From an uncultured Anaerolineales bacterium (GTDB taxonomy: Bacteria > Chloroflexota > Anaerolineae > B4-G1 > SLSP01): a DNA stretch of 64,000 nucleotides. Shown here piece after piece: positions 8,143 to 52,000 of this stretch. The notes below the pieces were generated by a model. That model searched no databases, was not told the origin of the DNA, and saw only the letters and a list, made by a program, of their open reading frames with translations. The translations under genes were made by a program, and so were the position numbers. The stretch spans positions 20,607 through 84,606 of the forward strand of contig CAYMAQ010000001.1 in NCBI GenBank assembly GCA_964388385.1, read 5' to 3'. Numbering within the stretch: position 1 is the first letter of the stretch; each line of letters starts with the position of its first letter.

Positions 8143-10254
8143 ATGCAAACCTTGACCACAAACAAAAGATCCACATCCAGCTTCGTATTTTATCCGAGAT
8201 GCGGTAACATACACCCCGTGAAACCCAGACAGAGACCTTGGTTGTGGTGGGCAAGCGTGATCACGCTCCTGCTGCTAATATTTGGACTTCGAACCTACGG
8301 GCTTTTACAGACTCCCCCGGGGCTTACCCACGATGAAGCCAGCAACGGGCACGACAGCAACGCCATACTTTCAGGTGTTCACCGGCTCTATTTTCCAGTT
8401 GGCTACGGCCACGAACCGCTATATAACTACTCGGTAGCTCTGATGACACACTTCCTGGGTCAAAGTATCTACACACTTCGGATAACGACAGTATTCTGGA
8501 GCTTGGCCCAGGTCACAGTCACGACTGCATTAGCCAGACGCTGGTGGGGACGTAAGGCAGCTCTAGGCGTCTTGGCTGCTTACACCGTGAGTTTTTGGGC
8601 GTTGATGATGAGTAGAATCGGCCTTCGCGCGCCCACACTCCCGGCTGTCCTGGCGGCGTCCATACTGACCTTCGATCGATCGCTCACTGCGACCCAAAAG
8701 CGGCTCACCGCCGTGATTGCCGGGGTCTTGCTGGGCCTGGGATTCTATACTTATATGGCAAGCCGAGGGACTCCGCTCCTCTACGTCGGATTCCTATTGA
8801 TATTGCTTCTCCTGGATCGAACCGCGTTCAAACAAGCGTGGCAACCGACGATGATAGTCCTGCTCACTGCTGTACTCGTCGGCATGCCTCTCTTTCTCTT
8901 GTTGCGCGCCCATCCGGCACTGGAGTCCCGCATCGAGCAGCTGGGTGGCGCCCTCAAAGCACTTCAGAACGGGGACTGGGGGCCCTTGATCGAAAACATC
9001 AGAGCCAACGCCCCTATGCTCTTCTGGACGGCAGACCCCCGTTGGCTCTACAATATTGCCGGTCGACCGCTTTTGGAACCGCTGCTGGTCGGGCTTTTTC
9101 TGCTGGGCCTCGGCGCCGCGCTTAGCAAATTGCGATCCCGTCGCACGATTCTGACTTTACTCTGGCTCGGGGTTGGGCTTGCCCCGGCATGGGTCGTCCC
9201 AATCGAATACAATACACTTCACGCCATCGCCGCGATGCCTCCGATCTTTCTACTGATTGGCCTGGGTTTCCGTACGTTAACGCAGATACGCATAGGCCTT
9301 GTGCGCATTGGAATGGCTTTGCTCTTAGGCGTGGGATTCGGGATAACAGCTGTCCGCACGACGCACGCCTATTTTGTCACCTGGAGCACACAACGTGACG
9401 TGCGGGTGGCTTACCACCACCACGTGGTCGCACTGGGAAGACATCTTAATCGACAGGAGCCACAATCCCCCGTCGTCATCACCAGCCTTTATCCCGGCGA
9501 GTACCATGATCCCTACACGATGGAGGTCACGTTGGAACGCCAGGACCTCAACCTGCGCTGGTGTGATGCACGCTACGCCCTTATGGTACCCCAAGCCCCG
9601 GCGCGCTTGTACATCGAAGAGCAGACGGTGCCGCATGAGGTCTTTGACGCTCTCCTCGCAGAAAAGACTCAACATATCACAACGCTGAATTTTGACGCGG
9701 ATGCCATTCCTTCGCAGATTCGGGGATATCGATGGGAAAGTGATCGAGCGTGGGACGACCTTCGCGCCGTCCTGGGCACGGACGTTCGAGCCCTAAACGG
9801 AGATCCACCGCCCAACGTGCCGCATCCGGTCCTCACCTCCCCCATCGACTTTGGGAACACGGTCGCGTTCATAGGATATGCAGCCCACACGGTTACAGGG
9901 ACGACCGCATCTCTGGAATTGATGACAGCCTGGGAAGTCAAATCCCCCCCGGAGCAGCGAATATGGATGTTCAGTCACCTTTTATCTCCTACGGGTGAGT
10001 TACTCGATCAGGTCGACCGCCTAGATGCACCCGCTTGGCAGTGGCGGGAAGGGGATCGTTTCGTTCAGCGGCATCAACTACAAGTGCCAGAGAGCGAATC
10101 CTGCAGCGCATGTAGTATTGCCGTAGGATTCTACATCCCTTCGACACTGACCCGGTTACCCGTGCAAGCAGACACCGTGACTTCGCTTGAAGGCCCACCC
10201 CCCACGCGCATTCTGATTCCTTATCCCCAGGCGTCAGGACAGAAGGCACCATGA
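8143..10254 (+). CDS. GT-C fold polytopic glycosyltransferase (ArnT/PMT-like, GT39/GT83-type) with C-terminal soluble module
   Basis: More than 10 predicted TM helices. First periplasmic loop carries the Asp-Glu motif (LTHDEASNG...GHEPLY). No RBS, so the start is uncertain. Confidence 0.75.
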   Translation: MQTLTTNKRSTSSFVFYPRCGNIHPVKPRQRPWLWWASVITLLLLIFGLRTYGLLQTPPGLTHDEASNGHDSNAILSGVHRLYFPVGYGHEPLYNYSVALMTHFLGQSIYTLRITTVFWSLAQVTVTTALARRWWGRKAALGVLAAYTVSFWALMMSRIGLRAPTLPAVLAASILTFDRSLTATQKRLTAVIAGVLLGLGFYTYMASRGTPLLYVGFLLILLLLDRTAFKQAWQPTMIVLLTAVLVGMPLFLLLRAHPALESRIEQLGGALKALQNGDWGPLIENIRANAPMLFWTADPRWLYNIAGRPLLEPLLVGLFLLGLGAALSKLRSRRTILTLLWLGVGLAPAWVVPIEYNTLHAIAAMPPIFLLIGLGFRTLTQIRIGLVRIGMALLLGVGFGITAVRTTHAYFVTWSTQRDVRVAYHHHVVALGRHLNRQEPQSPVVITSLYPGEYHDPYTMEVTLERQDLNLRWCDARYALMVPQAPARLYIEEQTVPHEVFDALLAEKTQHITTLNFDADAIPSQIRGYRWESDRAWDDLRAVLGTDVRALNGDPPPNVPHPVLTSPIDFGNTVAFIGYAAHTVTGTTASLELMTAWEVKSPPEQRIWMFSHLLSPTGELLDQVDRLDAPAWQWREGDRFVQRHQLQVPESESCSACSIAVGFYIPSTLTRLPVQADTVTSLEGPPPTRILIPYPQASGQKAP

Positions 10255-12242
10255 CCTGCGGGATCAAGACTCGTGAGCGTTGGGCCCTGCTTGCCACTCT
10301 GCTGATCGCTTGGACCGCACGATGGGTGGCGTTGATGGATGTCCCACCGGGATGGCGGGATGACGACCTCATCGAGCTCTACACGTTTTCCAAGGAAATT
10401 CTCGAATCTGGCCCGCAGCTCTACTTTACGGGGGCTTCAGGACACGAACCCCTTTATCACACGATTCGAGCACCCTTGATCGCGGTTGCTGGTTTGAACC
10501 AAGCCTCGGCCCGCTGGCTCGCGGCTTCTGCCGGAATGCTCTCTGTATTGCTGACGTGGGCAGTAGGTCGCCAACTCTTCGGGGGTCGTGCAGCTCTCGG
10601 GGCGGCGGCTTCGTTATCCGTCTCCTTCTGGAATCTGATGTACAGCCGCGTGGCCATCCGGCATATCGGCGCCCTGCCCTGGATGCTGGTGGCGATCTAT
10701 TGGGCCTGGCGTGAATTGGACGATCAACCTCAAACCCTAACCCCGCTGATAGGCATAGCTGTGGGAACCGCCGGCGCCGTGCTCACCTATTACGCCGGTC
10801 GATTGATACCGGCGCTGCTTCTGGCCTTTTTGCCTGTCCTATGGATCAACATCCGCCGCTGGCCTCGTTTTCTGACCGCACTCGGCGTCGGTCTGGCTTT
10901 GACCGGGCCGATGTTCATCGCATCGGCCCAGGCTCCCGGTGCAGATGCCCGCGTCAGCGAACTTGCCGGCCCCTTGTACGCCCTCGCCGAGGGTAACGCT
11001 GCCCCCTTTATTCAAACGACGCTGACCACATTGAGTATGTTTCACGCGACGGGAGATCCCGAGTGGCTCTACAATATCAGTGGACGACCCGTTTTCGGTA
11101 CGTTTGGAGCCGTGCTTTTTTTCGCCGCGCTGTTTTTCCACGCCATCACTATGGGCCAACGCAGATCTCGCTTTCTTCTCCTGTGGCTCCTGGTAGGATT
11201 GGCCCCGGCATTTATCAGTTTCCCACCCTCCAGTTACGGACATACTGTGCTGGCTATGCCCGCAGTCTACCTCATCCTGGCCCGAGTTATCGCATTAGGG
11301 CACAAATATGGCCCTCGGGGCTATAGGCAGAGCCTGGCCTTTATTCTGACCTTGGCTTCCGTGGCTTCAGTTGGCGGACGCGATCTTCCTGATTACTTTG
11401 TTGAGTGGGGAAATCACAGCATGGTGGAGTTTTTATATCGGGCGGATTATCGGGCGCTTGCGCAGCATCTCGACGCCCACGACGAGATCGAGGATGCGGT
11501 GGTAGGAAGTATGCTATTGGGCCCCTGGGATAGACTCGCGGTACGGACCGACCTCAAACGAGAGAAGCCGACTCTGCGATGGATCAATCCGACGAGATCC
11601 TTGGTGCTTACATCTGACGCCGCCACGCGGCTCTATCTCCAACACGAGGGACAGCGTCATCCTGCTATCGAGGACTATCTGCTGGATGCGCCCCCTGCCC
11701 CAGCACCGGAGGGTATGGAGGGATTCCTCATATCCCAATCCATTGTACGGCTTAAACAGCCATATCTTGAGGAGGGTTGTGACGGGAACCCACTGATCGA
11801 TCAGCCCTTCGAGAGTACACTGGCACTCAGTGCCGTTGAGATCGACGATGACGCGGATACGGAGAAGATGACGCTCAAACTCTGGTGGATGATCAAAGAT
11901 CCGCTTCCGTTGCCGCTCAAGGAGCTAATCCCCCACCCGCCGCCACCGGGTGTCTACAGTGGACCGCGACTGAAGGTCTTCGTGCACAGCACCAGGGCAG
12001 ACAGCGAAATCCAGCTCGATGTAGACGATGGAATAGGCGTCGATCCTTATACCCTCAGCGTGGGGGATCTTTGGCTACAAGTTCACAGCCTTGAGAAATC
12101 CGAGGGCCAACGAATCCGCATTGGACTCTACGATCCAAAAAGTGGCGCGCGATGGAGATTGGCTGATGGAGGTGATATGATCTGGATCTGCCCTCATCAA
12201 GCAGGACGTAAATCGGTTCAAAGCCGCCTCAGCGGAGATTGA
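10251..12242 (+). CDS. GT-C fold polytopic glycosyltransferase, tandem paralogue of 8143..10254
   Basis: ATGA overlap with the upstream gene. Same DD/DE...GHEPLY loop motif, many TM helices and the related C-terminal module. Confidence 0.75.
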   Translation: MTCGIKTRERWALLATLLIAWTARWVALMDVPPGWRDDDLIELYTFSKEILESGPQLYFTGASGHEPLYHTIRAPLIAVAGLNQASARWLAASAGMLSVLLTWAVGRQLFGGRAALGAAASLSVSFWNLMYSRVAIRHIGALPWMLVAIYWAWRELDDQPQTLTPLIGIAVGTAGAVLTYYAGRLIPALLLAFLPVLWINIRRWPRFLTALGVGLALTGPMFIASAQAPGADARVSELAGPLYALAEGNAAPFIQTTLTTLSMFHATGDPEWLYNISGRPVFGTFGAVLFFAALFFHAITMGQRRSRFLLLWLLVGLAPAFISFPPSSYGHTVLAMPAVYLILARVIALGHKYGPRGYRQSLAFILTLASVASVGGRDLPDYFVEWGNHSMVEFLYRADYRALAQHLDAHDEIEDAVVGSMLLGPWDRLAVRTDLKREKPTLRWINPTRSLVLTSDAATRLYLQHEGQRHPAIEDYLLDAPPAPAPEGMEGFLISQSIVRLKQPYLEEGCDGNPLIDQPFESTLALSAVEIDDDADTEKMTLKLWWMIKDPLPLPLKELIPHPPPPGVYSGPRLKVFVHSTRADSEIQLDVDDGIGVDPYTLSVGDLWLQVHSLEKSEGQRIRIGLYDPKSGARWRLADGGDMIWICPHQAGRKSVQSRLSGD

Positions 12243-16334: not shown

Positions 16335-18344
16335 TTATTGAGGAGCGGGCCAATCATAGACGATGGCAAGGAGACGCCCGTCCGGAGAGTGTAGAGATGT
16401 CCGGGTGCCCTGAGGATAAACCGATTCAATCCACGACAAATCGTCAATCCGATAGGATGTCACAACGAATCGCGCAGGCAGTATGACGGAGGACGGTCTC
16501 TGGTCGGGCAAGACATCCTCACCAGGTATACCGCGCGCCAGAAACTGCAACCCGCCAAACTCCCAGTAAAGCGATGGTGCCCCCAAGAAGTAGACGCGCC
16601 CTTCGCATATCCGGGAAGGACCTTGAGTGCAAACCGGGCTAGGATTCTCGCGCAGGTAACGACCGATAGCGGTCGCGACCTCCGAGGTGGGATTGCCGTA
16701 AACTCGGCGTGGCGTATAGACTGCAAAGTAAAATCCAACATTGAGAATGACGATCGCGGTAAGAATTCCGTAAACAAGCCATCGGTGTATAGATGTCTTC
16801 AGGGTGAGAGCGCGCAGCACTTCCCGCAGGCCCCACGCGACTAACACAGAGACGACAGGCATCAACAATAACCCTCGTTGACTGCTGGGCGGGTTCTCCG
16901 TGATTCCCCACGCCGTCAGGACAGTCGTAACAAACCATAAAAGCATCAGACCGCGACTGGGCCATCGCGCGCGCAAAACCGCAGCGCTTATGCCGATCAA
17001 TAACAACCCACTGGTGACAAAGTCAAGCAACGGACGCCCGGGGCGATACCAGAAGGTCGGATCGGGTGTCAGATGAAAAGCGGTGAAAGCCCTCCAAAGC
17101 TGCTGTCCCATCAAAAAGACTGCGCTGCGCCCCGTCAAAACTTGCTCTCGACTCAACCACCCGGAGGAGAAGATCGATACGGCTTGATATCGTTCGGTGA
17201 GCGCAGATGGATGGACCTGATACCATCCTAAAAGCGGCAAAAGCGCAATCAACCCACCGACAATTAACAGACCTACGGCGTGGCGATGCCGGTAAAGAAA
17301 AGCGGGATCCACCAACATCCGCCACAACAAAAAGAGACCCATCAAGATCGTGACCCAGCGTGCGCCAAAGTATCCGTACCACCCCAGGCCCGCAACGACC
17401 CCAGCCAACCCCCAAGCTGCCCTCCTTAGCCTCCTATCGTCACCAGCATCGTACCCCAACCATAGGAGTCCAAATGCCAGCGCGCCAACCCACGGATCCG
17501 CGATCTGGTTGGAAGCCAAACGGCTATAGTGAATGTGATAGGCCGAGACAGCCAGCACAATAGCACTCCACCAGCCGATACGCCGCCCTCCCACCATGCG
17601 ACCCAAAAAGAAAGTCAGAACGACCGTCGTTACGCCCATGATAACTGAAAGCGCACGGCCCCCCGCAATAGTCGCGCCAAGGATGCGCATCACCAGCCCA
17701 TAAGCAAAGAAAGACATCGTTGGCACGGAGTACCATCCGGTTGCGAAAGGATTACCCAGGGGTTTGTTCAGCAGATCAAGGCCGATAACAAGCTGAGTAC
17801 CCTCGTCGCCTCCAAGATTGTAGGGAATACGACCAAGCCGCACGCCCCTTAGCGCAGCCGCAACCGCGATCAGGAGGATCAAAGCGCCCCACTCCCAACG
17901 GAGCATAGGAGGATGAATGGCAGATGCGCGCAGTAGCGAGATGAGAAGGGGGAGGATGTAAACGCCAATACCGACGATCCAGATCAACAAAGGAACGACG
18001 TAGCTTCCATTGTCGGTAACCGAACGCGCCAAGACCATCGCCAGCGCAGAGGCGATCAGAGCGAAGACACGGAGCCAGCCCTCCAAGGTATGGGGAAACC
18101 AGCCGAGACAGAGGCGTCTGACAGCGGGCGGAAGCCTACACTTCCAGTAGCGGCGCATAATGGAGAGGAGCGTAATAAAGGACAAGCCGAGGATGAGGAA
18201 CGCATCCCAAACGTAAACCCCCAATGAGAGCAAGAGGGTCGCCCCGAACAGTGCCAACAACGCTACAGCAGAGACGATTTGCCTCGAAAATTCCCCGCGT
18301 CTCACGTTCCTCTCACCCACGATCCTATGCTCGTTCGGCGCCAC
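16335..18344 (-). CDS. GT-C fold glycosyltransferase (PMT_2/ArnT-like)
   Basis: YNLGGDEGTQL loop motif and more than 10 TM helices. GTG at 18344; start uncertain. Confidence 0.75.
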   Translation of the reverse strand: MAPNEHRIVGERNVRRGEFSRQIVSAVALLALFGATLLLSLGVYVWDAFLILGLSFITLLSIMRRYWKCRLPPAVRRLCLGWFPHTLEGWLRVFALIASALAMVLARSVTDNGSYVVPLLIWIVGIGVYILPLLISLLRASAIHPPMLRWEWGALILLIAVAAALRGVRLGRIPYNLGGDEGTQLVIGLDLLNKPLGNPFATGWYSVPTMSFFAYGLVMRILGATIAGGRALSVIMGVTTVVLTFFLGRMVGGRRIGWWSAIVLAVSAYHIHYSRLASNQIADPWVGALAFGLLWLGYDAGDDRRLRRAAWGLAGVVAGLGWYGYFGARWVTILMGLFLLWRMLVDPAFLYRHRHAVGLLIVGGLIALLPLLGWYQVHPSALTERYQAVSIFSSGWLSREQVLTGRSAVFLMGQQLWRAFTAFHLTPDPTFWYRPGRPLLDFVTSGLLLIGISAAVLRARWPSRGLMLLWFVTTVLTAWGITENPPSSQRGLLLMPVVSVLVAWGLREVLRALTLKTSIHRWLVYGILTAIVILNVGFYFAVYTPRRVYGNPTSEVATAIGRYLRENPSPVCTQGPSRICEGRVYFLGAPSLYWEFGGLQFLARGIPGEDVLPDQRPSSVILPARFVVTSYRIDDLSWIESVYPQGTRTSLHSPDGRLLAIVYDWPAPQ

Positions 18345-19241: not shown

Positions 19242-19419
19242 CTGATCTCCTCGGTAAAGCACATGGCAGCAAACCAAATCCAGCGCTCTGTTCCTGTATT
19301 GTACGGGTTGGTAAAAATTTGGCAATAGGCCGACACGCTACAATCCGGCTGATGTCCCCGCAATCGTCAGATGACGGCCAACTGGACAATCCTCGCCGAA
19401 TAGTGGTAGAATACGGCCT

Positions 19420-24141: not shown

Positions 24142-27100
24142 TCAGGGGACCGTAATCTCACCGAGCAAGACAGCGTCGGTGCCGTCGGCGAGACGGAGAC
24201 GTTCTCCGCTCTCGTCATACATCCCAACGCGAAAATGATAAGTTCCATCCTTGACACCCTCGGGCACAATGAGTGTGCGGGTTTCGATAATCACCTCACC
24301 CACGGCCCAACCGGGCGTAGGGCGCGTCCAATCGACCGGTTCTCCGTCACTCTGAGCTACAAGATGCCCCCCGTCGTCAACGAGATGGACAAAAACGCGA
24401 TACGGGATCGCGATCTCATCAAGCGCCTGCCAAGCGAGTTCAACCTCCAACGACGAGCCAGGAGTCACCGACTGCTGTGGAATTGAGTAGCCAGCCAGGC
24501 GGATGACAGAACCAAACACCCGATCTGCACTCGTCAAGGTCTCAGGAACCGTCCAGATTCGCTCCGGCGCCTGGACGTCAAGAGGGATCTCGGCCAACGG
24601 GTCGCAGGAGGGGAGCTGAACTTTGATCGCGTACTGCCCACTCTCCAGAGAACCGGGCAACCGCAGGGCAGGACATCCTATCCACCGGTCACCGCGGCGC
24701 CATTGGTCCGTCGGCCACTGTGCAGCAGATGGAGGTATCTCCCAACTCTGCATAATCGTGCCCTGATCATTCTCAAGAATGACGTTTACCCATTTCGCAT
24801 GAGTGGGTTGACGGCGCGCTTCCCACACCCAGCGCAGATGCAGCGATTCTCCCGGCGCTAACGAAGCGCGGTCGGGTTCCACCTGCCACAGGCCCAGGGC
24901 ACCACAAGCCCGAAGTTCTGCCTGGGGAGTGACCCCCAGATCATGCAAAGTCGGAGGCGTATCAGGCGGGGCCAGCTGAATCGGTGCCAAAGAGAGCGCC
25001 GGCCCGACAGGATTGCCGTCGATGCCGATGACCGAGGCCGGCTCCAACGTCTTGCGGTCGAACAAGGACAATGTCGGTGTATAGATCCCCGGAGGGATTC
25101 CAGCAGGAAGACCCACCAGCTTATCCATCCGCGCATAGCTGTTCGCAGGCCAGGCTTGAACAGGAGGTGGGGTGCGCCCCCATCGAGCGGGGCGCATCAA
25201 TGTCGGCCATGCATCGCCATCGGAGTCCTCCAGGGAAAGACCGGTGTGCCAGTCTCCATCCCCTGGATTGAGCGCGCTCCAGAACATCGTGAATTCCTGG
25301 GTGGTCCCAGAGGGCACCATACCCGTCAGCCCCTCCGCACCTATCAACATAGCGCGGTCCCCAAAATTGATCTGCATCGGCGTCTCCACGCCGCGAAGGC
25401 TACCATCCTCCTGCAGCCTGGTAGCACGCCAGAGCCACGGTTGTCGATCGACAACACCCACCTTCAGTAAGATCAAAGCCAGACCCACGACAGAAGTCGC
25501 AACCACCGCATGGCGTGGTGGTCCTCGCCAACCCGTGAAGGTCCCGCCCCTGGGAAGACCGAGGGTCAGACCGACGAGGCCTGCGAGACTGATCGCGGAG
25601 ATCGCGTCTGCAGCCAATCGCAGCGGCGTCTCGCCAAAGGCTATCTCAATCTCATGCGTGCCGGCCGGCACACGAAAGGTGAGTAACCCTGAACCCGACG
25701 CCGGGACCACCGGCACCCGCACACCGTCAATGAAGGCCTTCCAGCCCGGATAGTAGAGTGCAAGATAGCGAGCTGTAAATGATTCCGGGGAAGACAACCG
25801 GATCCTTGCCCGGAGAGCGTCATAGCGGGACGCGTGAATGACAGCGCCCTCAGGAAGAGCGGTGGAGGGCAACCGCACGACGGGACCGCTGGTCTCGTAA
25901 TCATCGAGGAGCGATGGGGCCTCTACAAGGCGCTCCGCCCAGATGGGCAAATATTCACCCTTGGCCGTTGTTCCAAGCGTATCTGTCGTATGCTCCCACC
26001 GGATCATCGAATCGACCGAGATTTCAGAAGGGGGCGAACAATGGTCAGGGAAAAACCAACCGAGATTGGCAAAAATGAGTACCACTATCCCGAGTACGGG
26101 CAATAAATCCGCGCTGACGTCGTACTTTTCTCGAAGCCACGTAGAACCCGCAGCGGTTCCGGCTCCGATCAAGAGTGAAAGGGAAAACGCAGCAGGGCCG
26201 AGATAACGCCAGGGGAATTGAACGTATGATAACAACAGCACCCGATCCCAAAGAAACTGGGAAGGCGCGAGGGTCAGTGCAGAAAAAAACAGAGCCAGAA
26301 AAACCAAGCTGCCGACGAATCCGCGCTCAGGCTTCTCAAGCTTGTGCCAGAAAACGATGGGGACCAATCCCAGGATTGCAGGCACCAAACCCAAGCTTTT
26401 TTGTGGCCAATCGTTGACAAGGTTAGGATCGGCGCGTCGGGGCAGCGCGAGCAGATGATCGAGGGGCAGGAAATTGTATCGATAGTCGAAGACCCATGTT
26501 CCCAGCAGTCGCCCCGTCTGGACATACGCCCGTTCGACCATGGGTGGCAGCCAAAAAAAGGCCGTGATCCCCAATCCTAACAAGCCGAACAACGCACCGC
26601 GCCCCACAGCATCCGGTTCTCGCATCTGTATGGCCAAAAGTACAACCCAAAGGATCAGCAACGGCGCAAAGAGAAAGGCGAAGAGGTGATGGCTCATCAC
26701 CATCGCCGCAAACGCGGCGGTACCGATCCATAGAGCGCGGCGATCTTTCAACCGAACCCAGCGATGGAGCCCCCAGAGCACCAGCGGGGGCCACGCCCAT
26801 GCAAAGGCTTCCCACAAGCTGCCTCGATTGAAGATGTCGTAGGCCTGAAACGGTGCGTAGACATAGGCAATCCCCGCAACCCAACCCGCCTCGCGACCAA
26901 AGAGTTCGCGGGCCAGCTTGACCATCGTAAGTCCACCGAGGACGACGCCGAGTGCGAAAACAGCATTCATCGAAACCGTCCACGCTGCCCCCATCTGATG
27001 CAGCAACGCAACCAACGAGGGCGGAAACGGCGAAGTAAAGAGATAAAGGGGAAAGCCCAGGCCGTGTGCCATCGCAGGCGCCCAACGTGAGTAGAGAACC

Positions 27101-27291
27101 CCCTGCTCCCACAGCGATGCGATCTGCACCGCACGCCAGAGATGAAAGATGTGATCGTATCCACATGCCAACGTGTCAACCAGCAAGGGCTGTAGAGCCG
27201 GAATGCTGAAAAGCAAGGGGACAACGAGGTCGAGGGCGCGATCCACGACCCGCATAACCCGAGGTGAGTTGGCGCGTCGAGACGTTATCAT
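24142..27291 (-). CDS. giant (1049 aa) GT-C-like polytopic membrane protein (YfhO/PTPS-related-like) with three tandem C-terminal beta-rich modules
   Basis: N-terminal region has about 12 TM helices with CGYDHIFHLWR. Then a periplasmic domain with YYPGWKAFIDG, one TM helix, and three ~120-aa repeats. ATG lies immediately after the upstream gene's TAA. Confidence 0.7.
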   Translation of the reverse strand: MITSRRANSPRVMRVVDRALDLVVPLLFSIPALQPLLVDTLACGYDHIFHLWRAVQIASLWEQGVLYSRWAPAMAHGLGFPLYLFTSPFPPSLVALLHQMGAAWTVSMNAVFALGVVLGGLTMVKLARELFGREAGWVAGIAYVYAPFQAYDIFNRGSLWEAFAWAWPPLVLWGLHRWVRLKDRRALWIGTAAFAAMVMSHHLFAFLFAPLLILWVVLLAIQMREPDAVGRGALFGLLGLGITAFFWLPPMVERAYVQTGRLLGTWVFDYRYNFLPLDHLLALPRRADPNLVNDWPQKSLGLVPAILGLVPIVFWHKLEKPERGFVGSLVFLALFFSALTLAPSQFLWDRVLLLSYVQFPWRYLGPAAFSLSLLIGAGTAAGSTWLREKYDVSADLLPVLGIVVLIFANLGWFFPDHCSPPSEISVDSMIRWEHTTDTLGTTAKGEYLPIWAERLVEAPSLLDDYETSGPVVRLPSTALPEGAVIHASRYDALRARIRLSSPESFTARYLALYYPGWKAFIDGVRVPVVPASGSGLLTFRVPAGTHEIEIAFGETPLRLAADAISAISLAGLVGLTLGLPRGGTFTGWRGPPRHAVVATSVVGLALILLKVGVVDRQPWLWRATRLQEDGSLRGVETPMQINFGDRAMLIGAEGLTGMVPSGTTQEFTMFWSALNPGDGDWHTGLSLEDSDGDAWPTLMRPARWGRTPPPVQAWPANSYARMDKLVGLPAGIPPGIYTPTLSLFDRKTLEPASVIGIDGNPVGPALSLAPIQLAPPDTPPTLHDLGVTPQAELRACGALGLWQVEPDRASLAPGESLHLRWVWEARRQPTHAKWVNVILENDQGTIMQSWEIPPSAAQWPTDQWRRGDRWIGCPALRLPGSLESGQYAIKVQLPSCDPLAEIPLDVQAPERIWTVPETLTSADRVFGSVIRLAGYSIPQQSVTPGSSLEVELAWQALDEIAIPYRVFVHLVDDGGHLVAQSDGEPVDWTRPTPGWAVGEVIIETRTLIVPEGVKDGTYHFRVGMYDESGERLRLADGTDAVLLGEITVP

Positions 27292-30477: not shown

Positions 30478-30547
30478 CAACAGGATTGTACCATGTTCCC
30501 GTGACCCGAAAACATTCGAACGGCCGCTGATGAAAAGCTGATCGCCG

Positions 30548-31162
30548 TTACGGCTCCTGCAGCGAGACCTGATAGACGTGGAGCATCCTCTGCGCAACGG
30601 TAAACCAGGTGAGGGTCGCCATCACGACAAGCGTGAACCGAACAATCCCCGGCACAATAAGGCCGACGGCCAGGAAAACCACACGTACAACCCGCGTAAA
30701 CAAGCCTACCTCACAGGTATATCCCAGACCTTCAGCACGAGCGCGCGTGTAACTGACCATCACGGAACCAAGCAGAATCAGGAAGAGAAGCGCAATATCA
30801 GCGACCCGCCTCGCACTCAACGCCCACACCATCAAGCCGAAAAGAACCGCGCCCTCAGAGAAACGGTCCAACGTCGAATCAAGGAAGGCACCGAACCGAC
30901 TTTGTTGTCGCGTCTCCCTCGCCAAGGACCCGTCCAGACCATCGACGGAGGAAGTTAAAAGCATAAGGATCCCACCCACCTGCAACCGACCGGCAGCCAG
31001 GACAGCCCCGACCCCCGCCGTTAATAGAAATCCTAACCAGGTCAGCTGATTCGGTCGCACTCCCCATCGCGCCAAAAAACCGATAACAGGACGTATCACG
31101 CCGGCCATCCGCTTTCGCAGCCAGTCTGTGAACGTGAAAGATGTATCACGCTGGGTTGACAC
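30548..31162 (-). CDS. CDP-alcohol phosphatidyltransferase (PI/PGP-synthase-like)
   Basis: Exact D-G-x2-A-R-x8-G-x3-D-x3-D motif (DGLDGSLARETRQQSRFGAFLDSTLD) and about 5 TM helices. GTG 31162 or ATG 31108 as start. Confidence 0.8.
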   Translation of the reverse strand: MSTQRDTSFTFTDWLRKRMAGVIRPVIGFLARWGVRPNQLTWLGFLLTAGVGAVLAAGRLQVGGILMLLTSSVDGLDGSLARETRQQSRFGAFLDSTLDRFSEGAVLFGLMVWALSARRVADIALLFLILLGSVMVSYTRARAEGLGYTCEVGLFTRVVRVVFLAVGLIVPGIVRFTLVVMATLTWFTVAQRMLHVYQVSLQEP

Positions 31163-34991: not shown

Positions 34992-36887
34992 GTGCTTGGA
35001 ACAACAATCTTATTGCTTGCCGCCTTCTTGCGCCTCGCAGCGTTCGATGAAGCCCTGGTCGGGTCCGACCAGTCATCGATCTTGGCCGCGGCTGCAGAGA
35101 TAGCTGCGCTCCGGGACTTCCCTCTGGTCGGTATCAAATCATCAGTCGGCGTCATGCAGACAGCGCTGCCGGCCTATCTTGCGGCACTCGGTTGGATGTT
35201 GCTCCCTCGGGTGATCGCGGTCAAATGGCTGTACGCAGTCCTGGACTTGATAGCGCTGGCATTTCTTTTTTCTGCGGTCAAGAACGAGCGCGGATGGACG
35301 GCAGCGAGCATCGCGGGATTGCTCTACGCAACTAATCCTTGGCTGGTTGAGTACAATCGCTGGATTTGGTATCAGACACTCATTCCCACCTTTGCGACCG
35401 TCGCATTCGCAGGTCTTCTCCTGACACTATCGGATCGACAACGTACCGGATGGCCCCTCACGGTGGCTATGTCCGGAGCGGCACTGATGGGGCTGGTTCA
35501 TCTGGCATCGGTGCCTTGGGCAGCTTTGCTCTTTCTACTCGGTTTTGTGGTGGCAATTCGCCGCCGCTGGCTTCCTGCCTACGCCGCCGGTGTTGGATTC
35601 AGCTTGATCGCAGCTTATCCCTATCTCCATTACCTCATTAAGACCCGGTTTGCCGACGTAGCGATGCTGCTGACCCAGGGTGGACAGTCAAGCTCCCGCA
35701 ATTGGGCAGCTTACCGACTGACAATAGAGCTTCTCAGCGGTCAACAGGTTCTGACGACACCACGGAGCTCTCTCTGGGCCGAATCGGTCGTGGAGCCAAA
35801 AACGCTCTATTGGGTCATCCCTAGCGTGCTTGGTTTTGCCGCCATCGGCGCACTCCAGGCAATCCATCGCAGACACGCATCGGCTTATCTGCTGGCGCTG
35901 GGCTGGACGCTCGCAGCACCAACCATCTTTGTATTCACCGGATTCCATCTTCAGCACTTTTATCTACTCTTTATCTTTCCAGCTCCTTGGGTTCTCATAG
36001 GAATGTGGTCGAGTGAGACAGTACCGCCTCAGTCCGTGATTGAAGAGAGCGTCCAGCGACTTGCCCTAGCAAGTACGCTCATCGTTTCGGTGTGGTGGGC
36101 TTATCTGTGGGGTGTAAGGATTGTCTACGAGAGTCGGGGAGCCCTCCGGGCACCAACGAGAGCGTGGTTAATGGATCGTACGGTGGATCGCATCGGGCAT
36201 TTCCTCAACATGGACCCCCAAAATGAGGTCATCATACTCACCGAGTTTGGAGGCGGACTCTCTCCCTACGACTGGATGCGCAATGCACTTAATACAGACC
36301 GAGTGCGGATTGTACCCGCCGACCGGGGCTTAATCCTCCCGCCTGACGAGAGTTGTTATCTGCTCGGACCCGGGGCCACACCCGCAGACCTAACACCCGC
36401 CGCATCTTTGGATATCCAATTTGAGGAGCGGTCATCTATGACCGTAATGGCTTCGCCTCCCTGGCGGTTCTTCTGCTACAACAACCGCCCACCGATGCCT
36501 GCCCCTTTAGCCCAATGGAGAAATGGGCTGACGTTGCTCGATACGGATATCCAGGGGCACTGGCAAGCATCGGGCACGTTAAATGTGCAGCATGCCTGGC
36601 ATTATAGGACTCGGCGAGATCAGGTATATCATCTCTTCAATCACCTGACGGAAGAGGAAACGCTTGTCACCCAGGCCGATGGTGCGGGAGTCCCAACCCG
36701 ATTCTGGCGTGATGATGATGGACTGATCACCCACTTCACGCTCAAATTACCCGAGACCTTAAACGAAGAGACTCAATACCATCTTAAGGTCGGAGCCTAT
36801 ACCTGGCCCGGACTTGAGCGAGTTCTGCTCTTGGATGGGACAGACGCCTATACCGTCGAAACATTCTCCGGTAGCGTTATGCATTGA
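34992..36887 (+). CDS. GT-C fold polytopic glycosyltransferase-like membrane protein
   Basis: AAFDEALVGSD loop motif, more than 10 TM helices and the related C-terminal module. The only in-frame start is GTG 34992; an AGGAGGAG 28 nt upstream is too far to serve it. Confidence 0.65.
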   Translation: MLGTTILLLAAFLRLAAFDEALVGSDQSSILAAAAEIAALRDFPLVGIKSSVGVMQTALPAYLAALGWMLLPRVIAVKWLYAVLDLIALAFLFSAVKNERGWTAASIAGLLYATNPWLVEYNRWIWYQTLIPTFATVAFAGLLLTLSDRQRTGWPLTVAMSGAALMGLVHLASVPWAALLFLLGFVVAIRRRWLPAYAAGVGFSLIAAYPYLHYLIKTRFADVAMLLTQGGQSSSRNWAAYRLTIELLSGQQVLTTPRSSLWAESVVEPKTLYWVIPSVLGFAAIGALQAIHRRHASAYLLALGWTLAAPTIFVFTGFHLQHFYLLFIFPAPWVLIGMWSSETVPPQSVIEESVQRLALASTLIVSVWWAYLWGVRIVYESRGALRAPTRAWLMDRTVDRIGHFLNMDPQNEVIILTEFGGGLSPYDWMRNALNTDRVRIVPADRGLILPPDESCYLLGPGATPADLTPAASLDIQFEERSSMTVMASPPWRFFCYNNRPPMPAPLAQWRNGLTLLDTDIQGHWQASGTLNVQHAWHYRTRRDQVYHLFNHLTEEETLVTQADGAGVPTRFWRDDDGLITHFTLKLPETLNEETQYHLKVGAYTWPGLERVLLLDGTDAYTVETFSGSVMH

Positions 36888-36920: not shown

Positions 36921-38402
36921 CTACGGATATTCTTCAGACGCCAGAAGCCAGGCCGACAGGGCCAACATCAATCCGATATGGAGATGCACATTGTTGACGA
37001 GCAGGTTATCCACCAGGCTGTGGGCCGCAAATTGACACCACGCTCCGATCAATCCCAGCGTGAGTCCACGATGCCATCCGGTCTGCCGATGTAAAGTCGC
37101 CATCAACCGCCCAACCCATAGCCCTAACCAGAGCAGATATCCCGACAAACCCAGCAGCCCGGTCTCCGCCAACAGGTTGAGATAGGTATTATGCGCGTGT
37201 CCTAAGGCCAGAGGCCAATTGGCAAGCCGATACACGGGATAGGCAGACTCATAGCAGCCCAGCCCCACCCCGAGCCAGAAATGATCGCGCCACATGCCCA
37301 GGGCGGCCTGCCAATGGGCCACGCGCTCGAGGACAGCATAACTGGCATCGGTGACGGCAACTCCGCGCACATCGGCAAAGCGCGTGTAGGCTAAAAATCC
37401 AATCATCCGTTCACTTATCGCAGTCGGCAACCACCCGGCAAGATAGGCCCACCACCCGGCAGCCAGCAGTGCCACGACGCCTGTCAAACCCCAAAATCTG
37501 CGGCGTGGAAAAAGCACAGCTATGCCCAGCATCGCCACGCCAAACCCCATCCATCCACCACGGGACCAGGAAGCGATCAATCCGCCGACCAACCCTAACA
37601 CGGCAGCCGAAACCAACAGCCGCCGCAGCATAGGCCACCATCCCTCCCTGCCCCGCTCACGAAACCAACTGTCCCACATACCGGCGGACAATCCCACCGC
37701 AACCGCAGCGACCATCCCGACGAAACCGGCATAAGGATTCGGTTGTTGAAAGGTCCCATAAGCCCGATACAACCGCCCGAAGATCAGAAAAGCATCAGGA
37801 CCGTCGCCGCGGCCCACAAACTGCCAGAGCCCAACGCCAGCCTGAATAAGACCAGCACCGAGTAACGTGGCGATCATCACCCCACCGACAAGGTTCCGAG
37901 AATCGCTCCGAATCCGTTGTGAGACGACCAAAAAGATCAGAAGGATCTGAACCCATTTTGACAGCTCAAGAAATCCAACCCAGACATCGACCGGCGACCA
38001 TAGCGTAAGCAGATAAAGACCGAGAAGCCCCAAGAGAGGAGCCAGGAGCGGAGGGGTCGGTATTTCGATCTCCCGCCGCACCAAACCTTGCAACAACCAC
38101 GCACAGAGCGCGGAAACGAATGCGATCTGACCGATATAGTTGGGGACACCGGGAGCGGCAATGTGCAACCACGCCGTCAGCGGCCCAACCAAAAGCGAGA
38201 GGATCACCCCGACCAGCGGCTCAATCAGCAAGGCAACGAGAAATCCGCTCCCCACAACCCCAAACCCGACATAGACCAGAGGCAAGCCGGCAATCAGAAG
38301 GCCCGCAAAGCCGCCGAAAATCGAGAGGCCAATCAGGACACACCACCAGCGCCAGTGCGTGAGAACGCCCGGTGCTCTCCAGGATTTCAGTACTCGATCC
38401 AT
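36921..38402 (-). CDS. O-antigen ligase (WaaL/RfaL)-like or O-antigen polymerase-like membrane protein
   Basis: About 12 TM helices with a large periplasmic loop near the C-terminal third. Overlaps the NUDIX gene by 16 nt. Confidence 0.6.
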   Translation of the reverse strand: MDRVLKSWRAPGVLTHWRWWCVLIGLSIFGGFAGLLIAGLPLVYVGFGVVGSGFLVALLIEPLVGVILSLLVGPLTAWLHIAAPGVPNYIGQIAFVSALCAWLLQGLVRREIEIPTPPLLAPLLGLLGLYLLTLWSPVDVWVGFLELSKWVQILLIFLVVSQRIRSDSRNLVGGVMIATLLGAGLIQAGVGLWQFVGRGDGPDAFLIFGRLYRAYGTFQQPNPYAGFVGMVAAVAVGLSAGMWDSWFRERGREGWWPMLRRLLVSAAVLGLVGGLIASWSRGGWMGFGVAMLGIAVLFPRRRFWGLTGVVALLAAGWWAYLAGWLPTAISERMIGFLAYTRFADVRGVAVTDASYAVLERVAHWQAALGMWRDHFWLGVGLGCYESAYPVYRLANWPLALGHAHNTYLNLLAETGLLGLSGYLLWLGLWVGRLMATLHRQTGWHRGLTLGLIGAWCQFAAHSLVDNLLVNNVHLHIGLMLALSAWLLASEEYP

Positions 38403-38851
38403 TGCACTAATTTGAGATCGCGATCGTACACAAACTTCGCATGGAAAAAGTCAGTGTCCGAACTCAGAATCCGGGGAGCGAAGATTGCATCGGCCTGTGG
38501 AATCGGCAGGTCACGATAATAGCGCGCCAAGGGAACCCAATCCAACGCGCCCTCCCGAAGGTCTGGGGTAAGTTTGCCCTCAAAACAGTGGGCCACGTAG
38601 ATAAAGAGGAACCACTGCCAATCAGGTCGTGGGGAAACTTCGGTGCAAAACCCCTTCCAGTCCAGATTGCTTACATGAAGGCCCGTCTCCTCAAACATCT
38701 CGCGCTTTGCCGCGTCCATCGGGGATTCATCAAGTTCCACTTTGCCGCCGGGAGCGATCCAAAGACCGAGGTTCGGCGCCTTGTTGCGATGAATAAGCAG
38801 CACCTCGTCGTCCTGCTTCGCATAGACCAACACACTGGCGATCCTTGCCAT
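38387..38851 (-). CDS. NUDIX hydrolase
   Basis: Nudix box GGKVELDESPMDAAKREMFEETGL. Confidence 0.8.
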   Translation of the reverse strand: MARIASVLVYAKQDDEVLLIHRNKAPNLGLWIAPGGKVELDESPMDAAKREMFEETGLHVSNLDWKGFCTEVSPRPDWQWFLFIYVAHCFEGKLTPDLREGALDWVPLARYYRDLPIPQADAIFAPRILSSDTDFFHAKFVYDRDLKLVQWIEY

Positions 38852-39801
38852 CAGGCCAATCCTAGGCGCTCGCGAAAATACGCCGTCGTCAACGTCAGCC
38901 CCTCGCGAAGCGAGACCTCAGGCTCCCAGCCCAGCCATTCGCGCGCCCGGCTGATATCCGGACACCGCCGCTTGGGGTCGTCTCGGGTCCGCTCATCCTC
39001 CGGAATGACAAACGTGATATCGGAGGGGCTATCCGTGACTTCGATGACAAGCTTGGCGAAGTCCAGGATTGTGATCTCATTGGGATTGCCGATATTGACC
39101 GGATCTGTCTCGTCTGAGGCCATCAGGCGCATGATTCCCGCGACCAGGTCATCAACGTAGCAGAACGCTCGCGTCCGTTGCCCCTTGTCATACACAGTCA
39201 AAGGATCGCTGCGGAGCGCCTGACTGATGAAATTCGGGACGACCCGTCCATCATCCACACGCATCCGGGGGCCGTAGGTGTTGAAAATCCTCACAATCCG
39301 AGTGTCGACGCCATGATAACGATGGTAGGCCATCGTTAAGGCCTCAGCGAAGCGTTTGCTCTCGTCGTAAACGCCGCGTGGCCCCACAGGGTTGACGTTT
39401 CCCCAATAGGATTCCTCCTGCGGGTGGACCAATGGATCCCCATAGACCTCCGAGGTGGAGGCCAAAAGATAGCGGGCGTCTTTGACCAATGCGAGACCTA
39501 ACGTATTGTGCGTACCCAGCGCACCGACCTTCAAAGTCTGAATCGGAAAGTTTAAGTAATCGACTGGGCTGGGGAGAGATGCAAGATGGAGCACCATATC
39601 GAGATGACCGGCAACGTAGATATAGTTGGTGACGTCGTGCTTGATAAAGGAGAATTGAGAATGACCGGCTAGATGTGAGATATTGTCCGTCGTCCCGGTC
39701 TTAAGGTTATCCATAGCGATCACCTCATGACCTTCATCAAGATATTGATCGCAGAGATGCGAACCAATAAAGCCTGCTCCGCCTGTGATAAGAATACGCA
39801 T
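38851..39801 (-). CDS. UDP-glucuronate decarboxylase (UDP-xylose synthase) / short-chain NAD-dependent sugar epimerase-dehydratase
   Basis: [16 protein letters not shown] Rossmann motif and YxxxK. UXS/ArnA-decarboxylase-like over the full length. Confidence 0.85.
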
Positions 39802-39991: not shown

Positions 39992-40020
39992 TTCACACGA
40001 AATCGTTTCTGTGCTACAAT
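39992..40020 (+). promoter_or_regulatory. promoter TTCACA-17-TGcTACAAT (extended -10) for the coiled-coil/SPFH operon
   Basis: Seen directly, about 70 nt upstream of the ATG at 40090. Confidence 0.4.
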
Positions 40021-40089
40021 GGATGTCAGGCGAAAACAAGCGACAATCAACAGAAACCCACGAAACCTAACCGCTTGAGGAGGGGCAGA

Positions 40090-40605: not shown

Positions 40606-40676
40606 TAACTGAGGAGAAAACGAGGCGCTAGTCTCTTGCAGCGACGCCTTGATAGACCTACGGGAGGTAAATACCT

Positions 40677-50116: not shown

Positions 50117-52000
50117 ATGATGTCGACTACGAATGGTATCCAACACCGACGATCCCCCACCCAGGCCCTCTACGCCTGGGTAAGCACATTACGCCGCACA
50201 GACCGCATCGTCCTTGTCCTAACGGTTGTCTACGTCGCCACACTCTCGTTCCTGACAATCCGCGAGCACAACGGATTTGGTACCCGGGCCCTTGACCTGG
50301 CGAAGTTCGATCAGGCTATCTGGAACACCGCTCACGGACGGCCTTTTCGGACTACGCTGGGCGAATACTCTGTGATCCAAAGTCACTTCTCACCGGCCTT
50401 GGCGCTCTACGCCCCGCTCTTCTGGGCATGGTCCGATGTGCGCTTACTCTTCATTGCCCAGGCCTTACTGATGGCTGGGGCCGGGCTCCCAATCTACCTC
50501 TATCTCCGCAAATCGCATCCAGGGCTTGGTCTGACCGTCTTCGCCAGCTACCTGATGCACCCGATGATCCATCAGGTCAATCTCATTGAATTCCGCCGCA
50601 TCACCCTCGCTGTCTTTGCCACATCACTGACGATCCTGATGATGCTGCGGCGGCGACATCGGTGGATGTTCGTTTCACTCGCCATAGCCCTGCTCTGTAA
50701 GGAGGATATGGCTTTCACCGTGGTCGCGGTGGGTCTGTACATCGCGTTGGCCCAACGCAACTTCCGGCTTGGTATTCCGCTGACTATCTTCGGGGCCGCC
50801 TATCTTGTCCTGATCCCCTTTATTGTCCTACCGGCGCTCAACGCCGAAGCGTCCTATCGCCACGCAGCCCATAATTTCAGCTACCTGGGTGGCAGTTTGT
50901 CTGACATCGTGCCCACGCTGCTGGCTCAACCGAGCCTACCCTTGACCTATATGTTCCGCCCGGACCGGCTCTGGGCTGTGATCCGGCTCTTCTGGCCGAC
51001 GCTCTTTCTATTCGTGCTGGCTCCCGAGGTCGCCGCCTTTATGCTGCCTAATCTCGGATACCTGCTGGCCAGCACCGGTGACGCTATGGGACGACTGGAA
51101 GACTGGTATCCTGCGATTCTGCTGGTCTATCTCTACTGGGCCGTGGCTCTGGGCGCCCGGCGCTTGCCTGAGAGCTGGGTCCGGATAGCCAGCGGCGCGC
51201 TGATACTGGCTGGCACCGCCGCTTGGCTGTCCAGCAGTCCGCTCTGGCCCGGCGCCGCGTTTCAACCAAGGAATTACACGATCGTCAGGCACGACCGCCT
51301 TGTCCGCCGTGCGCTGCGCGACGTTGACCCCACCGCAGCCGTCGCAGCCCAGGATGCGCTCGTCCCTCACCTCTCCCACCGCGAGGAAATCTATCTCTAC
51401 CCGTGGATCTATGAGGGGACCTCGGTGGACACAGTGGCACTGGATCGCAGTATGGGCACCTATCCGCTCACCCTGGGAGAGTACACCTCTCGCTTCTACG
51501 ACTACCTGGCCTCAACGCAGTGGAGAATCGCGCGCCAGGTTGACAGCTTCCTCCTTTTCGAGCGCGTGGCTGCCATCACGCCGGAGGTGGCGCGCGATGA
51601 CGTGTGGAGCGGGACAGTCATGCTGACCGGCGTCAGCGCAACGCTGGCCGCGGACGGTACAGACTTCGAGGTGACCCACGCTGACCATGGCACCGCGACG
51701 CTTCGAGTCGCCCTCATCTGGGAGATGGTAGCGACAGCGGATCGCAACTACACGGTCTTCGTTCACGTCTTGGACAAGCAAGATCAGCTCCTGGCTCAAC
51801 ACGACAGTTGGCCCGCCGACGCACATCGCCCGACCAGCGTACTGGATGCGGGAACCAGGATCCGTGATGTCCATACGCTGACGTGGTCCGGTAACGGGAC
51901 TGAGGCCGACGCGTTGCGCATCGGCGTCTACGACAGCCTCACCGGCGATCCCCTCACACTCTCCGACGGTAAACCCTTTGTCGTCGTCCCTATGCCTTAA
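50117..52000 (+). CDS. DUF2079-like polytopic membrane protein (GT-C-like) with C-terminal soluble module
   Basis: HNGFGTRALDLAKFDQAIWNT...HFSPALALYAPL resembles the DUF2079 N-terminus. About 10 TM helices. The ORF-track extension to 50033 is an AT-rich promoter region. Confidence 0.65.
   Translation: MMSTTNGIQHRRSPTQALYAWVSTLRRTDRIVLVLTVVYVATLSFLTIREHNGFGTRALDLAKFDQAIWNTAHGRPFRTTLGEYSVIQSHFSPALALYAPLFWAWSDVRLLFIAQALLMAGAGLPIYLYLRKSHPGLGLTVFASYLMHPMIHQVNLIEFRRITLAVFATSLTILMMLRRRHRWMFVSLAIALLCKEDMAFTVVAVGLYIALAQRNFRLGIPLTIFGAAYLVLIPFIVLPALNAEASYRHAAHNFSYLGGSLSDIVPTLLAQPSLPLTYMFRPDRLWAVIRLFWPTLFLFVLAPEVAAFMLPNLGYLLASTGDAMGRLEDWYPAILLVYLYWAVALGARRLPESWVRIASGALILAGTAAWLSSSPLWPGAAFQPRNYTIVRHDRLVRRALRDVDPTAAVAAQDALVPHLSHREEIYLYPWIYEGTSVDTVALDRSMGTYPLTLGEYTSRFYDYLASTQWRIARQVDSFLLFERVAAITPEVARDDVWSGTVMLTGVSATLAADGTDFEVTHADHGTATLRVALIWEMVATADRNYTVFVHVLDKQDQLLAQHDSWPADAHRPTSVLDAGTRIRDVHTLTWSGNGTEADALRIGVYDSLTGDPLTLSDGKPFVVVPMP

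What the first reader, a model, noticed from the sequence alone, without database searches (positions are those of the whole stretch)
8143..52000. Expansion of GT-C-type glycosyltransferase paralogues across the window
Seven large polytopic proteins carry a GT-C-type first-loop D-E/D-D motif or DUF2079/YfhO-like signatures. They start at 8143, 10251, 16335, 24142, 27292, 34992 and 50117. Around them sit a WaaL-like ligase, a Wzz-like fragment, a UXS-NUDIX operon, a secreted GH-A hydrolase, a TPR protein and an ASST-like propeller. All are interspersed with core genes (valS, mutL, murA and others) rather than grouped in one island. This suggests a chromosomally embedded, multi-substrate envelope glycosylation machinery that uses polyprenyl-phosphate sugars (S-layer or sheath glycans, or lipoglycans).
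Basis: partly seen in the sequence, partly recalled or inferred. Interest (0 to 1): 0.6.

Follow-up and report, generated by a model that had tools for sequence, protein, structure and literature searches.

The report
Seven GT-C glycosyltransferases in an Anaerolineae genome
This stretch of an uncultured Anaerolineae (Chloroflexota) genome really does encode seven large membrane glycosyltransferases of the GT-C type; six end in the same unnamed sugar-binding-like domain, and the whole set is an inherited trait of the class that probably builds its poorly understood cell surface.

Summary

The neighbours are mostly as described: Wzy_C protein, UDP-xylose synthase, NUDIX, GH39/GH5-like hydrolase, TPR, ASST, valS, mutL and murA. 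The "Wzz-like fragment" could not be confirmed.

Two things are new. First, six of the seven proteins share a C-terminal beta-sandwich module of about 125 aa, with three copies in G4 and G5. No Pfam family covers it. It is present in about 22,500 protein clusters, mostly fused to GT-C domains, and its fold resembles Wzt carbohydrate-binding domains. Second, this is not a local expansion. The order G4-G5-...-mutL-...-G6-Wzy_C-NUDIX-UXS is conserved in about ten related species, and in more distant Anaerolineae the G6 orthologue sits in same-strand arrays of up to six GT-C genes.

Donors and acceptors are inferred only: the window has no polyprenyl-phosphate-sugar synthase or flippase. These are new members of a known kind, and interest is moderate.

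The parts
8143..10254 (+). G1: GT-C (PMT_2/ArnT-like) membrane glycosyltransferase, 703 aa. First-loop motif HDEA (D64 E65). One C-terminal module at nt 9811-10248.
   Evidence: PMT_2 23.1 bits, below the cut-off. 30 % identical to G2 over 494 aa. TM-only hhalign of G1+G2: 98 % with G3 and 93.9 % with the G6 family. Module found.
10251..12242 (+). G2: GT-C (PMT_2) paralogue of G1, 663 aa. Its start overlaps the G1 stop (ATGA). Motif RDDD. One C-terminal module at nt 11769-12215.
   Evidence: PMT_2 29.5 bits; junction sequence; module.
16335..18344 (-). G3: GT-C (PMT_2), 669 aa. Motif GDEG at residues 178-181. About 145 extra N-terminal residues with 4 predicted TM segments. No shared C-terminal module.
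   Evidence: PMT_2 34.8 bits; hydropathy; module HMM finds nothing.
24142..27291 (-). G4: YfhO-like GT-C, 1049 aa. Module copies at nt 24145-24555 and 24619-24882. A third, weaker copy upstream is inferred from the alignment with G5.
   Evidence: YfhO 50.7 bits. 35 % identical to G5 over 1036 aa. Module domains. G4+G5 TM domain against the G6 family: 93.1 %.
27292..30597 (-). G5: PTPS_related/YfhO-like GT-C, 1101 aa, directly upstream of G4 (stop TAA followed at once by ATG). Three module copies at nt 27295-27717, 27787-28062 and 28171-28563.
   Evidence: PTPS_related 29.9 bits; module domains; junction.
34992..36887 (+). G6: GT-C fold protein of an Anaerolineae-wide family, 631 aa. D26 is invariant. 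One C-terminal module at nt 36492-36884.
50117..52000 (+). G7: DUF2079 protein with GT-C fold, 627 aa. D60 and D65 are invariant. One C-terminal module at nt 51581-51997.
36921..38402 (-). Wzy_C-family (O-antigen ligase/polymerase-like) membrane protein, tail-to-tail with G6. The adjacency is conserved in relatives.
   Evidence: Wzy_C 65.5 bits; no PDB sequence match; synteny.
38387..38851 (-). NUDIX hydrolase in the conserved UXS-NUDIX-Wzy_C gene string.
   Evidence: NUDIX 76 bits; synteny.
38851..39801 (-). UDP-glucuronate decarboxylase (UDP-xylose synthase).
   Evidence: 365 bits, E 2.7e-108, to human UXS1 structures. ArnA scores only about 100 bits.

Best explanation
The window carries seven extracytoplasmic glycosyltransferases of the GT-C fold. 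They fall into three sequence groups: PMT_2/ArnT-like (G1, G2, G3, G6), YfhO/PTPS_related (G4, G5) and DUF2079 (G7). By analogy with every characterised GT-C enzyme, each should take a sugar from a polyprenyl-phosphate-linked donor at the outer face of the membrane and transfer it using the conserved Asp of the first external loop.

Six of the seven end in one to three copies of a shared beta-sandwich module of about 125 aa. In the models this module lies on the same side of the membrane as the catalytic loop. It most likely binds the glycan acceptor or product, which would tether the enzymes to a surface polysaccharide. EmbC does this with its C-terminal carbohydrate-binding module, and Wzt does it with its own.

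The complement is vertically inherited and typical of the class Anaerolineae. It probably builds or decorates the non-LPS surface layers of these bacteria. G6 is stably linked to a Wzy_C protein, a NUDIX hydrolase and UDP-xylose synthase, which hints at a xylose-containing polymer.

Shown: family, fold, conserved Asp, the shared module, and synteny. Inferred: the donors, the acceptors, the binding role of the module, and any cooperation among the seven.
For: - Pfam hits to families treated here as GT-C for six of seven proteins.
- TM-domain-only profile comparisons link G1/G2 to G3 (98 %), G1/G2 to the G6 family (93.9 %) and G4/G5 to the G6 family (93.1 %).
- The first-loop Asp is invariant in 41 G6 homologues and 46 G7 homologues.
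- Both models have 11 TM helices before the soluble C-terminal part, so the first loop and the module are on the same side.
- The module is present in G1, G2, G4, G5, G6 and G7 and nowhere else in the window.
- The module occurs in 22,518 clusters at E<=1e-3. Of 50 carriers, most match a GT-C-type family: PMT_2 23, PTPS_related 6, PMT 5, DUF2142 4, YfhO 3, TMEM260-like 2; these counts can overlap within one protein.
- Synteny is conserved, and GT-C arrays occur in other Anaerolineae.
- GC content is even, 0.53-0.59, across the window.
- Three-component GT-C glycosylation and carbohydrate-binding modules on Wzt and EmbC are established (PMC11127046, PMC5836110, PMC8035078).
Against: - The window has no polyprenyl-phosphate-sugar synthase (GT2) and no GtrA-type flippase, so the donor side is unseen.
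- G1 is below the PMT_2 cut-off, and G1-G5 were not modelled.
- The YfhO and PTPS_related hits cover only the N-terminal third of those profiles.
- The similarity of the module to Wzt carbohydrate-binding domains is modest and is typical of many beta-sandwiches. GH2 accessory domains score as high or higher.
- Nothing shows that the seven enzymes act on one product. G7's neighbourhood is not conserved.
- No biochemical evidence exists for any member of the G6 or DUF2079 families. Literature searches found none.
Confidence: 0.75

Rival explanations
1. The enzymes are mainly protein O-glycosyltransferases, like eukaryotic and actinobacterial PMT (GT39) or TMEM260. They would mannosylate secreted or S-layer proteins, and the C-terminal module would recognise protein rather than glycan.
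Against: PMT_2 is a broad family that includes ArnT-like lipid and glycan transferases. ArnT and ALG12 score nearly the same as Pmt4. No MIR domain is present. The closest small-domain fold matches of the module are carbohydrate-binding domains. G6 is linked to a Wzy_C protein and UXS, which suggests a glycan pathway.
Confidence: 0.2
2. The cluster is a horizontally acquired or recently amplified glycosylation island peculiar to this genome.
For: GT-C density is very high (25 % of the window), and there are two adjacent paralogue pairs.
Against: Paralogue identities are only 30-35 %. GC is even across the window. Core genes are interleaved. The same gene order occurs in about ten species whose G6 orthologues are 46-58 % identical. 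No mobile-element genes were seen in the window.
Confidence: 0.03
3. Some or all are not glycosyltransferases. They could be polytopic transporters, or inactive scaffolds that merely keep a GT-C-like fold, as PIG-U/GAB1 do in the GPI transamidase.
Against: No transporter family is hit. The catalytic-loop Asp is invariant in the G6 and G7 families. Active GT-C enzymes score much higher than PIG-U.
Confidence: 0.07

Closest known systems
YfhO/GtlB-type GT-C enzymes of the three-component LTA/WTA glycosylation systems (CsbB/GtlA GT2 + GtcA flippase + YfhO/GtlB) of Bacillus and Listeria
   Same: G4 matches the YfhO profile above its cut-off. The predicted mechanism is the same: an extracytoplasmic enzyme that takes its sugar from C55-P-sugar (PMC5836110, PMC8035078, PMC7389260).
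   Different: Only the N-terminal third of the YfhO profile is matched. G4 and G5 carry three extra C-terminal beta-sandwich modules. No GT2 or GtcA partner is nearby. No teichoic-acid acceptor has been identified for these organisms.
ArnT (GT83) and PMT (GT39) families, Pfam PMT_2/PMT
   Different: Sequence identity to the solved enzymes is 8-13 %, and phmmer finds no PDB relative. Chloroflexota are reported to lack the LPS pathway (PMC13319060), so the lipid A acceptor of ArnT does not apply. No MIR domain as in PMT.
[quoted passage not shown]
   Different: The sequence families are different, and the module is of a different type (small beta-sandwich, one to three tandem copies). The donor and the polymer are unknown.
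Wzt C-terminal carbohydrate-binding domain (Pfam Wzt_C, PDB 6o14, 5hno, 2r5o)
   Different: The window copies score nothing against Wzt_C. The module is attached to a membrane glycosyltransferase on the outside, not to a cytoplasmic ABC ATPase. Binding has not been tested.

Membership tests
GT-C fold glycosyltransferase superfamily | Polytopic membrane domain (about 8-13 TM helices) followed by a soluble extracytoplasmic domain | tested here: met
   Hydropathy gives 6-12 segments in each of the seven proteins. The G6 and G7 models show 11 TM helices followed by an alpha/beta domain and a beta-sandwich.
GT-C fold glycosyltransferase superfamily | Conserved acidic residue(s) (D/E) in the first extracytoplasmic loop | tested here: met
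   Motifs read in all seven. D26 is invariant in the G6 family. D60 and D65 are invariant in the G7 family. For G1-G5 only the single sequences were inspected.
GT-C fold glycosyltransferase superfamily | Three-dimensional similarity to solved GT-C enzymes | tested here: met
GT-C fold glycosyltransferase superfamily | Uses a lipid-phosphate-linked sugar donor | not testable with these tools
   This needs biochemistry. No donor-synthesis gene is present in the window.
Pfam PMT_2 (PF13231) | Score at or above the gathering cut-off of 26.1 bits | tested here: inconclusive
   G2 29.5 and G3 34.8 pass. G1 at 23.1 fails. G6 has no hit, although several of its orthologues carry a precomputed PF13231 hit.
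Pfam YfhO (PF09586) / PTPS_related (PF10131) | Score above the cut-off and coverage of the profile | tested here: inconclusive
   G4 scores 50.7 on YfhO (cut-off 28.5) but covers only profile positions 71-385 of 835. G5 scores 29.9 on PTPS_related (cut-off 26.4) and covers positions 1-171 of 621.
Pfam DUF2079 (PF09852) | Score above the cut-off over most of the profile | tested here: met
   G7 scores 184 bits over profile positions 7-422 of 459. All 120 listed homologues carry PF09852.
Three-component extracytoplasmic glycosylation system (GT2 synthase + flippase + GT-C) | A polyprenyl-phosphate glycosyltransferase (GT2) and a GtrA/small-flippase gene encoded with the GT-C gene | tested here: not met
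   No Glycos_transf_2 or GtrA hit in any ORF scanned across the 64 kb. Such genes may lie elsewhere in the genome.
Wzt-type carbohydrate-binding domain (Pfam Wzt_C) | Sequence match to PF14524, similar fold, and glycan binding | tested here: inconclusive
WaaL-type O-antigen ligase | Wzy_C domain plus evidence of ligation to lipid A-core | tested here: inconclusive
   Wzy_C scores 65.5 bits. The family also contains polymerases and protein O-oligosaccharyltransferases. There is no PDB sequence match, and the phylum is reported to lack the LPS pathway (PMC13319060).

The most novel reading that the evidence does not exclude
The shared C-terminal beta-sandwich is an undescribed and very large family of acceptor-binding modules specific to GT-C enzymes (about 22,500 clusters, no Pfam model). 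On this reading, the arrays of module-bearing GT-C genes in Anaerolineae form a dedicated assembly line for the non-LPS outer layer or sheath polysaccharide of Chloroflexota, with each paralogue adding one linkage while held on the growing polymer.
Probability: 0.25. Interest if true: 0.6.

Novelty: new member of a known kind. Interest (0 to 1): 0.35.

Why it matters
What the layered cell envelope of Chloroflexota is made of remains unsettled. The phylum lacks the LPS and BAM pathways, and polysaccharide or protein layers have been proposed (PMC13319060). A class-wide complement of GT-C enzymes that all carry a common sugar-binding-like module is a concrete set of candidates for the enzymes that build those layers.

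The module is a large domain family with no Pfam model and would merit a profile of its own. The models also place DUF2079 and the G6 family firmly in the GT-C fold. None of this overturns current ideas, because many GT-C genes are already annotated in these genomes under generic names.

Tried and rejected
- Sequence searches of G2, G3, G4, G6, G7, the G6-family profile and the Wzy_C protein against PDB found nothing relevant. Fold comparison was needed instead.
- An exact look-up of ValS failed.
- The word-indexed homologue search with the module profile returned mostly short fragments and said little about architecture. The exhaustive profile search replaced it.
- Literature searches for DUF2079, GT-C with Chloroflexi, GT83/GT39 with Chloroflex*, and PMT_2 with Anaerolineae gave nothing useful.
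- The afdb50 fold library was unavailable.
- The source genome is not a GTDB species representative (best G6 match 58 %). A genome-wide count of GT-C genes, and a search for GT2 donor synthases outside the window, could not be made.
- The transporter hypothesis and the recent-island hypothesis were considered and rejected (see rival explanations).
Full report
**What the window is.** The 64-kb window has an even GC content of 0.53-0.59. Its proteins find their closest relatives in uncultured Anaerolineae/Chloroflexota MAGs. G6 and G7 each have a 100 %-identical copy on metagenome contigs; the G6 copy comes from a microbial-mat assembly. The genome itself is not a GTDB species representative: the best G6 orthologue there is 58 % identical.

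**Check of the observation.** All seven ORFs are present at the stated coordinates.
- Pfam gives PMT_2 for G1 (23.1 bits, just below the 26.1 cut-off), G2 (29.5) and G3 (34.8).
- G4 hits YfhO (50.7 bits), G5 hits PTPS_related (29.9) and G7 hits DUF2079 (184).
- G6 hits nothing. NCBIfam adds only faint Agl23 and STT3 hints.
- All seven are polytopic.
- Each has an acidic residue shortly after its first core TM helix: HDEA, RDDD, GDEG, YDH, HDN, SDQ and LDLAKFDQ.
- Together the seven genes fill 25.5 % of the window.

**The surrounding genes.**
- a Wzy_C-family protein, a NUDIX hydrolase and a true UDP-glucuronate decarboxylase (365 bits to human UXS1);
- a weak GH39/GH5-like protein with an N-terminal hydrophobic segment, a TPR protein and an ASST-like protein;
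- ValS, MutL and MurA.

The 'Wzz-like fragment' could not be confirmed. The partial ORF at 2-544 has a C-terminal hydrophobic segment but no HMM hit.

**Fold tests.** G6 lacked any Pfam hit, and DUF2079 is a family of unknown function, so I modelled both with alignments of their homologues.
- G6: pLDDT 93.7, pTM 0.92. G7: pLDDT 93.5, pTM 0.90.
- D26 of G6, and D60 and D65 of G7, are invariant across 41 and 46 homologues.
- Profile comparisons restricted to the membrane domains link G1/G2 to G3 (98 %), G1/G2 to the G6 family (93.9 %) and G4/G5 to the G6 family (93.1 %).
- The high full-length score between the G6 and G7 families (97.6 %) comes largely from a shared C-terminal domain: with the membrane domains alone it is 13 %.

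**A shared C-terminal module.** An all-against-all BLAST showed that G1, G2, G4, G5, G6 and G7 share a C-terminal segment of about 125 aa; G3 does not.
- An HMM built from six copies finds one copy in each of G1, G2, G6 and G7. It finds three in G5 and two clear copies in G4, where a third is inferred from the G4/G5 alignment. It finds none elsewhere in the six-frame translation of the window.
- The consensus reads roughly Y-x-V-F-V-H-L-x-D-x-x-G-x-x-x-x-Q-x-D...P-T-x-x-W...G-x-Y.
- No Pfam family covers it, even at E<=10.
- An exhaustive profile search of 1.84 billion representatives finds 22,518 clusters at E<=1e-3 and 13,623 at E<=1e-10. The best-scoring carriers typically have two to four tandem copies, usually at the end of 900-1100-aa proteins.
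- Of 50 carriers scanned, most match a GT-C-type family: PMT_2 23, PTPS_related 6, PMT 5, DUF2142 4, YfhO 3, TMEM260-like 2; a protein can match more than one of these.
- The carriers that have a source name are Chloroflexota.
- In both models the module is an eight-stranded beta-sandwich. It follows 11 TM helices and an alpha/beta domain, so it lies on the same side of the membrane as the catalytic first loop.
- Two relatives give sub-threshold Wzt_C hits.

A glycan-binding role is therefore plausible but unproven. [quoted passage not shown]

**Is it an 'expansion' here?** The adjacent pairs look translationally coupled: the G1 stop overlaps the G2 start (ATGA), and the TAA stop of G5 directly abuts the ATG of G4. 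They are old duplicates, at 30 % and 35 % identity.

I fetched the G6 orthologue with 10-kb flanks from 40 GTDB species and searched the loci with the window's proteins and the module HMM.
- About ten species, whose G6 orthologues are about 50-58 % identical, keep the order G4-G5-CDP-alcohol phosphatidyltransferase-MutL-(orf149)-asparaginase-G6-Wzy_C-NUDIX-UXS-LIMLP_15305-like-SPFH. One locus extends further, to PlsX and DinG.
- In more distant Anaerolineae the G6 orthologue lies in arrays of large polytopic ORFs. Thirteen loci have three to six module-bearing ORFs of at least 450 aa, and up to eight polytopic ORFs occur in 22 kb.
- One such array is annotated GT4 - PMT_2 - YfhO - PMT_2 - G6 orthologue - PMT - x - PMT_2, all on one strand.
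- A G7 orthologue elsewhere sits in a tandem DUF2079 pair in an unrelated context.

The high GT-C load is thus a class-wide, inherited trait. The scattering among core genes seen here is one arrangement of it, shared by a subgroup of species. It is not a recent amplification or an acquired island.

**Mechanism.**
- Shown: seven GT-C-type proteins, with the fold verified for two and profile links for the rest; conserved first-loop Asp; a shared outward-facing module; and a stable linkage of G6 with Wzy_C, NUDIX and UXS.
- Inferred from what is known of GT-C enzymes (three-component systems; PMC11127046, PMC5836110, PMC8035078): each enzyme takes a sugar from a polyprenyl-phosphate carrier at the outer face and adds it to a surface acceptor.
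- The carbohydrate-binding-like module and the Wzy_C/UXS linkage favour a polysaccharide acceptor, possibly containing xylose, over protein or lipid. This is a preference, not a result.
- The window contains no GT2 polyprenyl-phosphate-sugar synthase and no GtrA-type flippase. The only carrier-lipid-related gene is a DgkA/undecaprenol-kinase-family ORF at 12232-12624, and it sits in the PgpH(7TMR-HD)-YbeY-DgkA cluster familiar from Bacillus (my recollection).

**Comparison and novelty.** These are new, distant members of known GT-C families, 8-13 % identical to the solved enzymes. They are not a new kind of system. Three points go beyond current annotation, as far as my limited literature searches show:
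- the fold-level placement of the G6 family and of DUF2079;
- the very large module family that has no Pfam model;
- the GT-C gene arrays in Anaerolineae.

The envelope of Chloroflexota is an open question (PMC13319060), which gives the set some value as a list of candidates. Interest is moderate, at 0.35.

Noticed in passing
window 49718-50024 (-): A T-box leader (RF00230, 94.1 bits) lies upstream of valS. It fills most of the gap between valS and G7 and fits the 50117 start of G7.
   Followed up: partly
window 12232-12624 (-): A DAGK_prokar (DgkA/undecaprenol-kinase family) ORF, 125 bits, lies convergent with and abutting G2. It belongs to a 7TMR-HD(PgpH)-YbeY-DgkA cluster, so its proximity to the GT-C genes may be coincidental.
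   Followed up: partly
window 18363-19325 (-): A 320-aa protein with a receiver domain (residues 32-139) and an unassigned C-terminal half lies 18 nt upstream of G3 on the same strand. It may be co-transcribed with G3.
   Followed up: no
window 17900-18344 (-), the N-terminus of G3: G3 has about 145 residues with four predicted TM segments ahead of the canonical GT-C start (DE at 179-180). This is either a real N-terminal extension or a start codon called too far upstream; a Met at residue 147 would give a standard GT-C N-terminus.
   Followed up: no
window 63750-63998 (-): A partial ORF cut by the window end aligns end-to-end with the C-terminus of the Wzy_C protein (35 % over 48 aa, pairwise E 7e-5). 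It is probably a second Wzy_C-like gene.
   Followed up: partly
window 31141-33162 (+): The mechanical MutL ORF (673 aa) begins inside the CDP-alcohol phosphatidyltransferase gene. Relatives-639 aa, so the true start is probably near 31384.
   Followed up: partly
window 39943-41783 (+): A LIMLP_15305-like protein (64.9 bits, below its cut-off) is followed by an SPFH/Band-7 protein with a C-terminal GYF_2 domain. The pair is conserved next to the UXS block in about seven related species.
   Followed up: partly
window 52059-53237 (-): A 392-aa protein with one N-terminal TM segment and no Pfam or NCBIfam hit lies convergent with G7.
   Followed up: no
L049 814-18114; L047 10001-13930: In other Anaerolineae MAGs, six GT-C genes (PMT_2, YfhO, PMT and the G6 orthologue) follow a GT4 gene on one strand. 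An FGE-sulfatase-domain gene follows that array, and another lies a few kilobases upstream of a tandem DUF2079 pair.
   Followed up: partly
window 2-544 (+): A partial ORF at the window start ends in a hydrophobic segment and a charged tail.
   Followed up: partly
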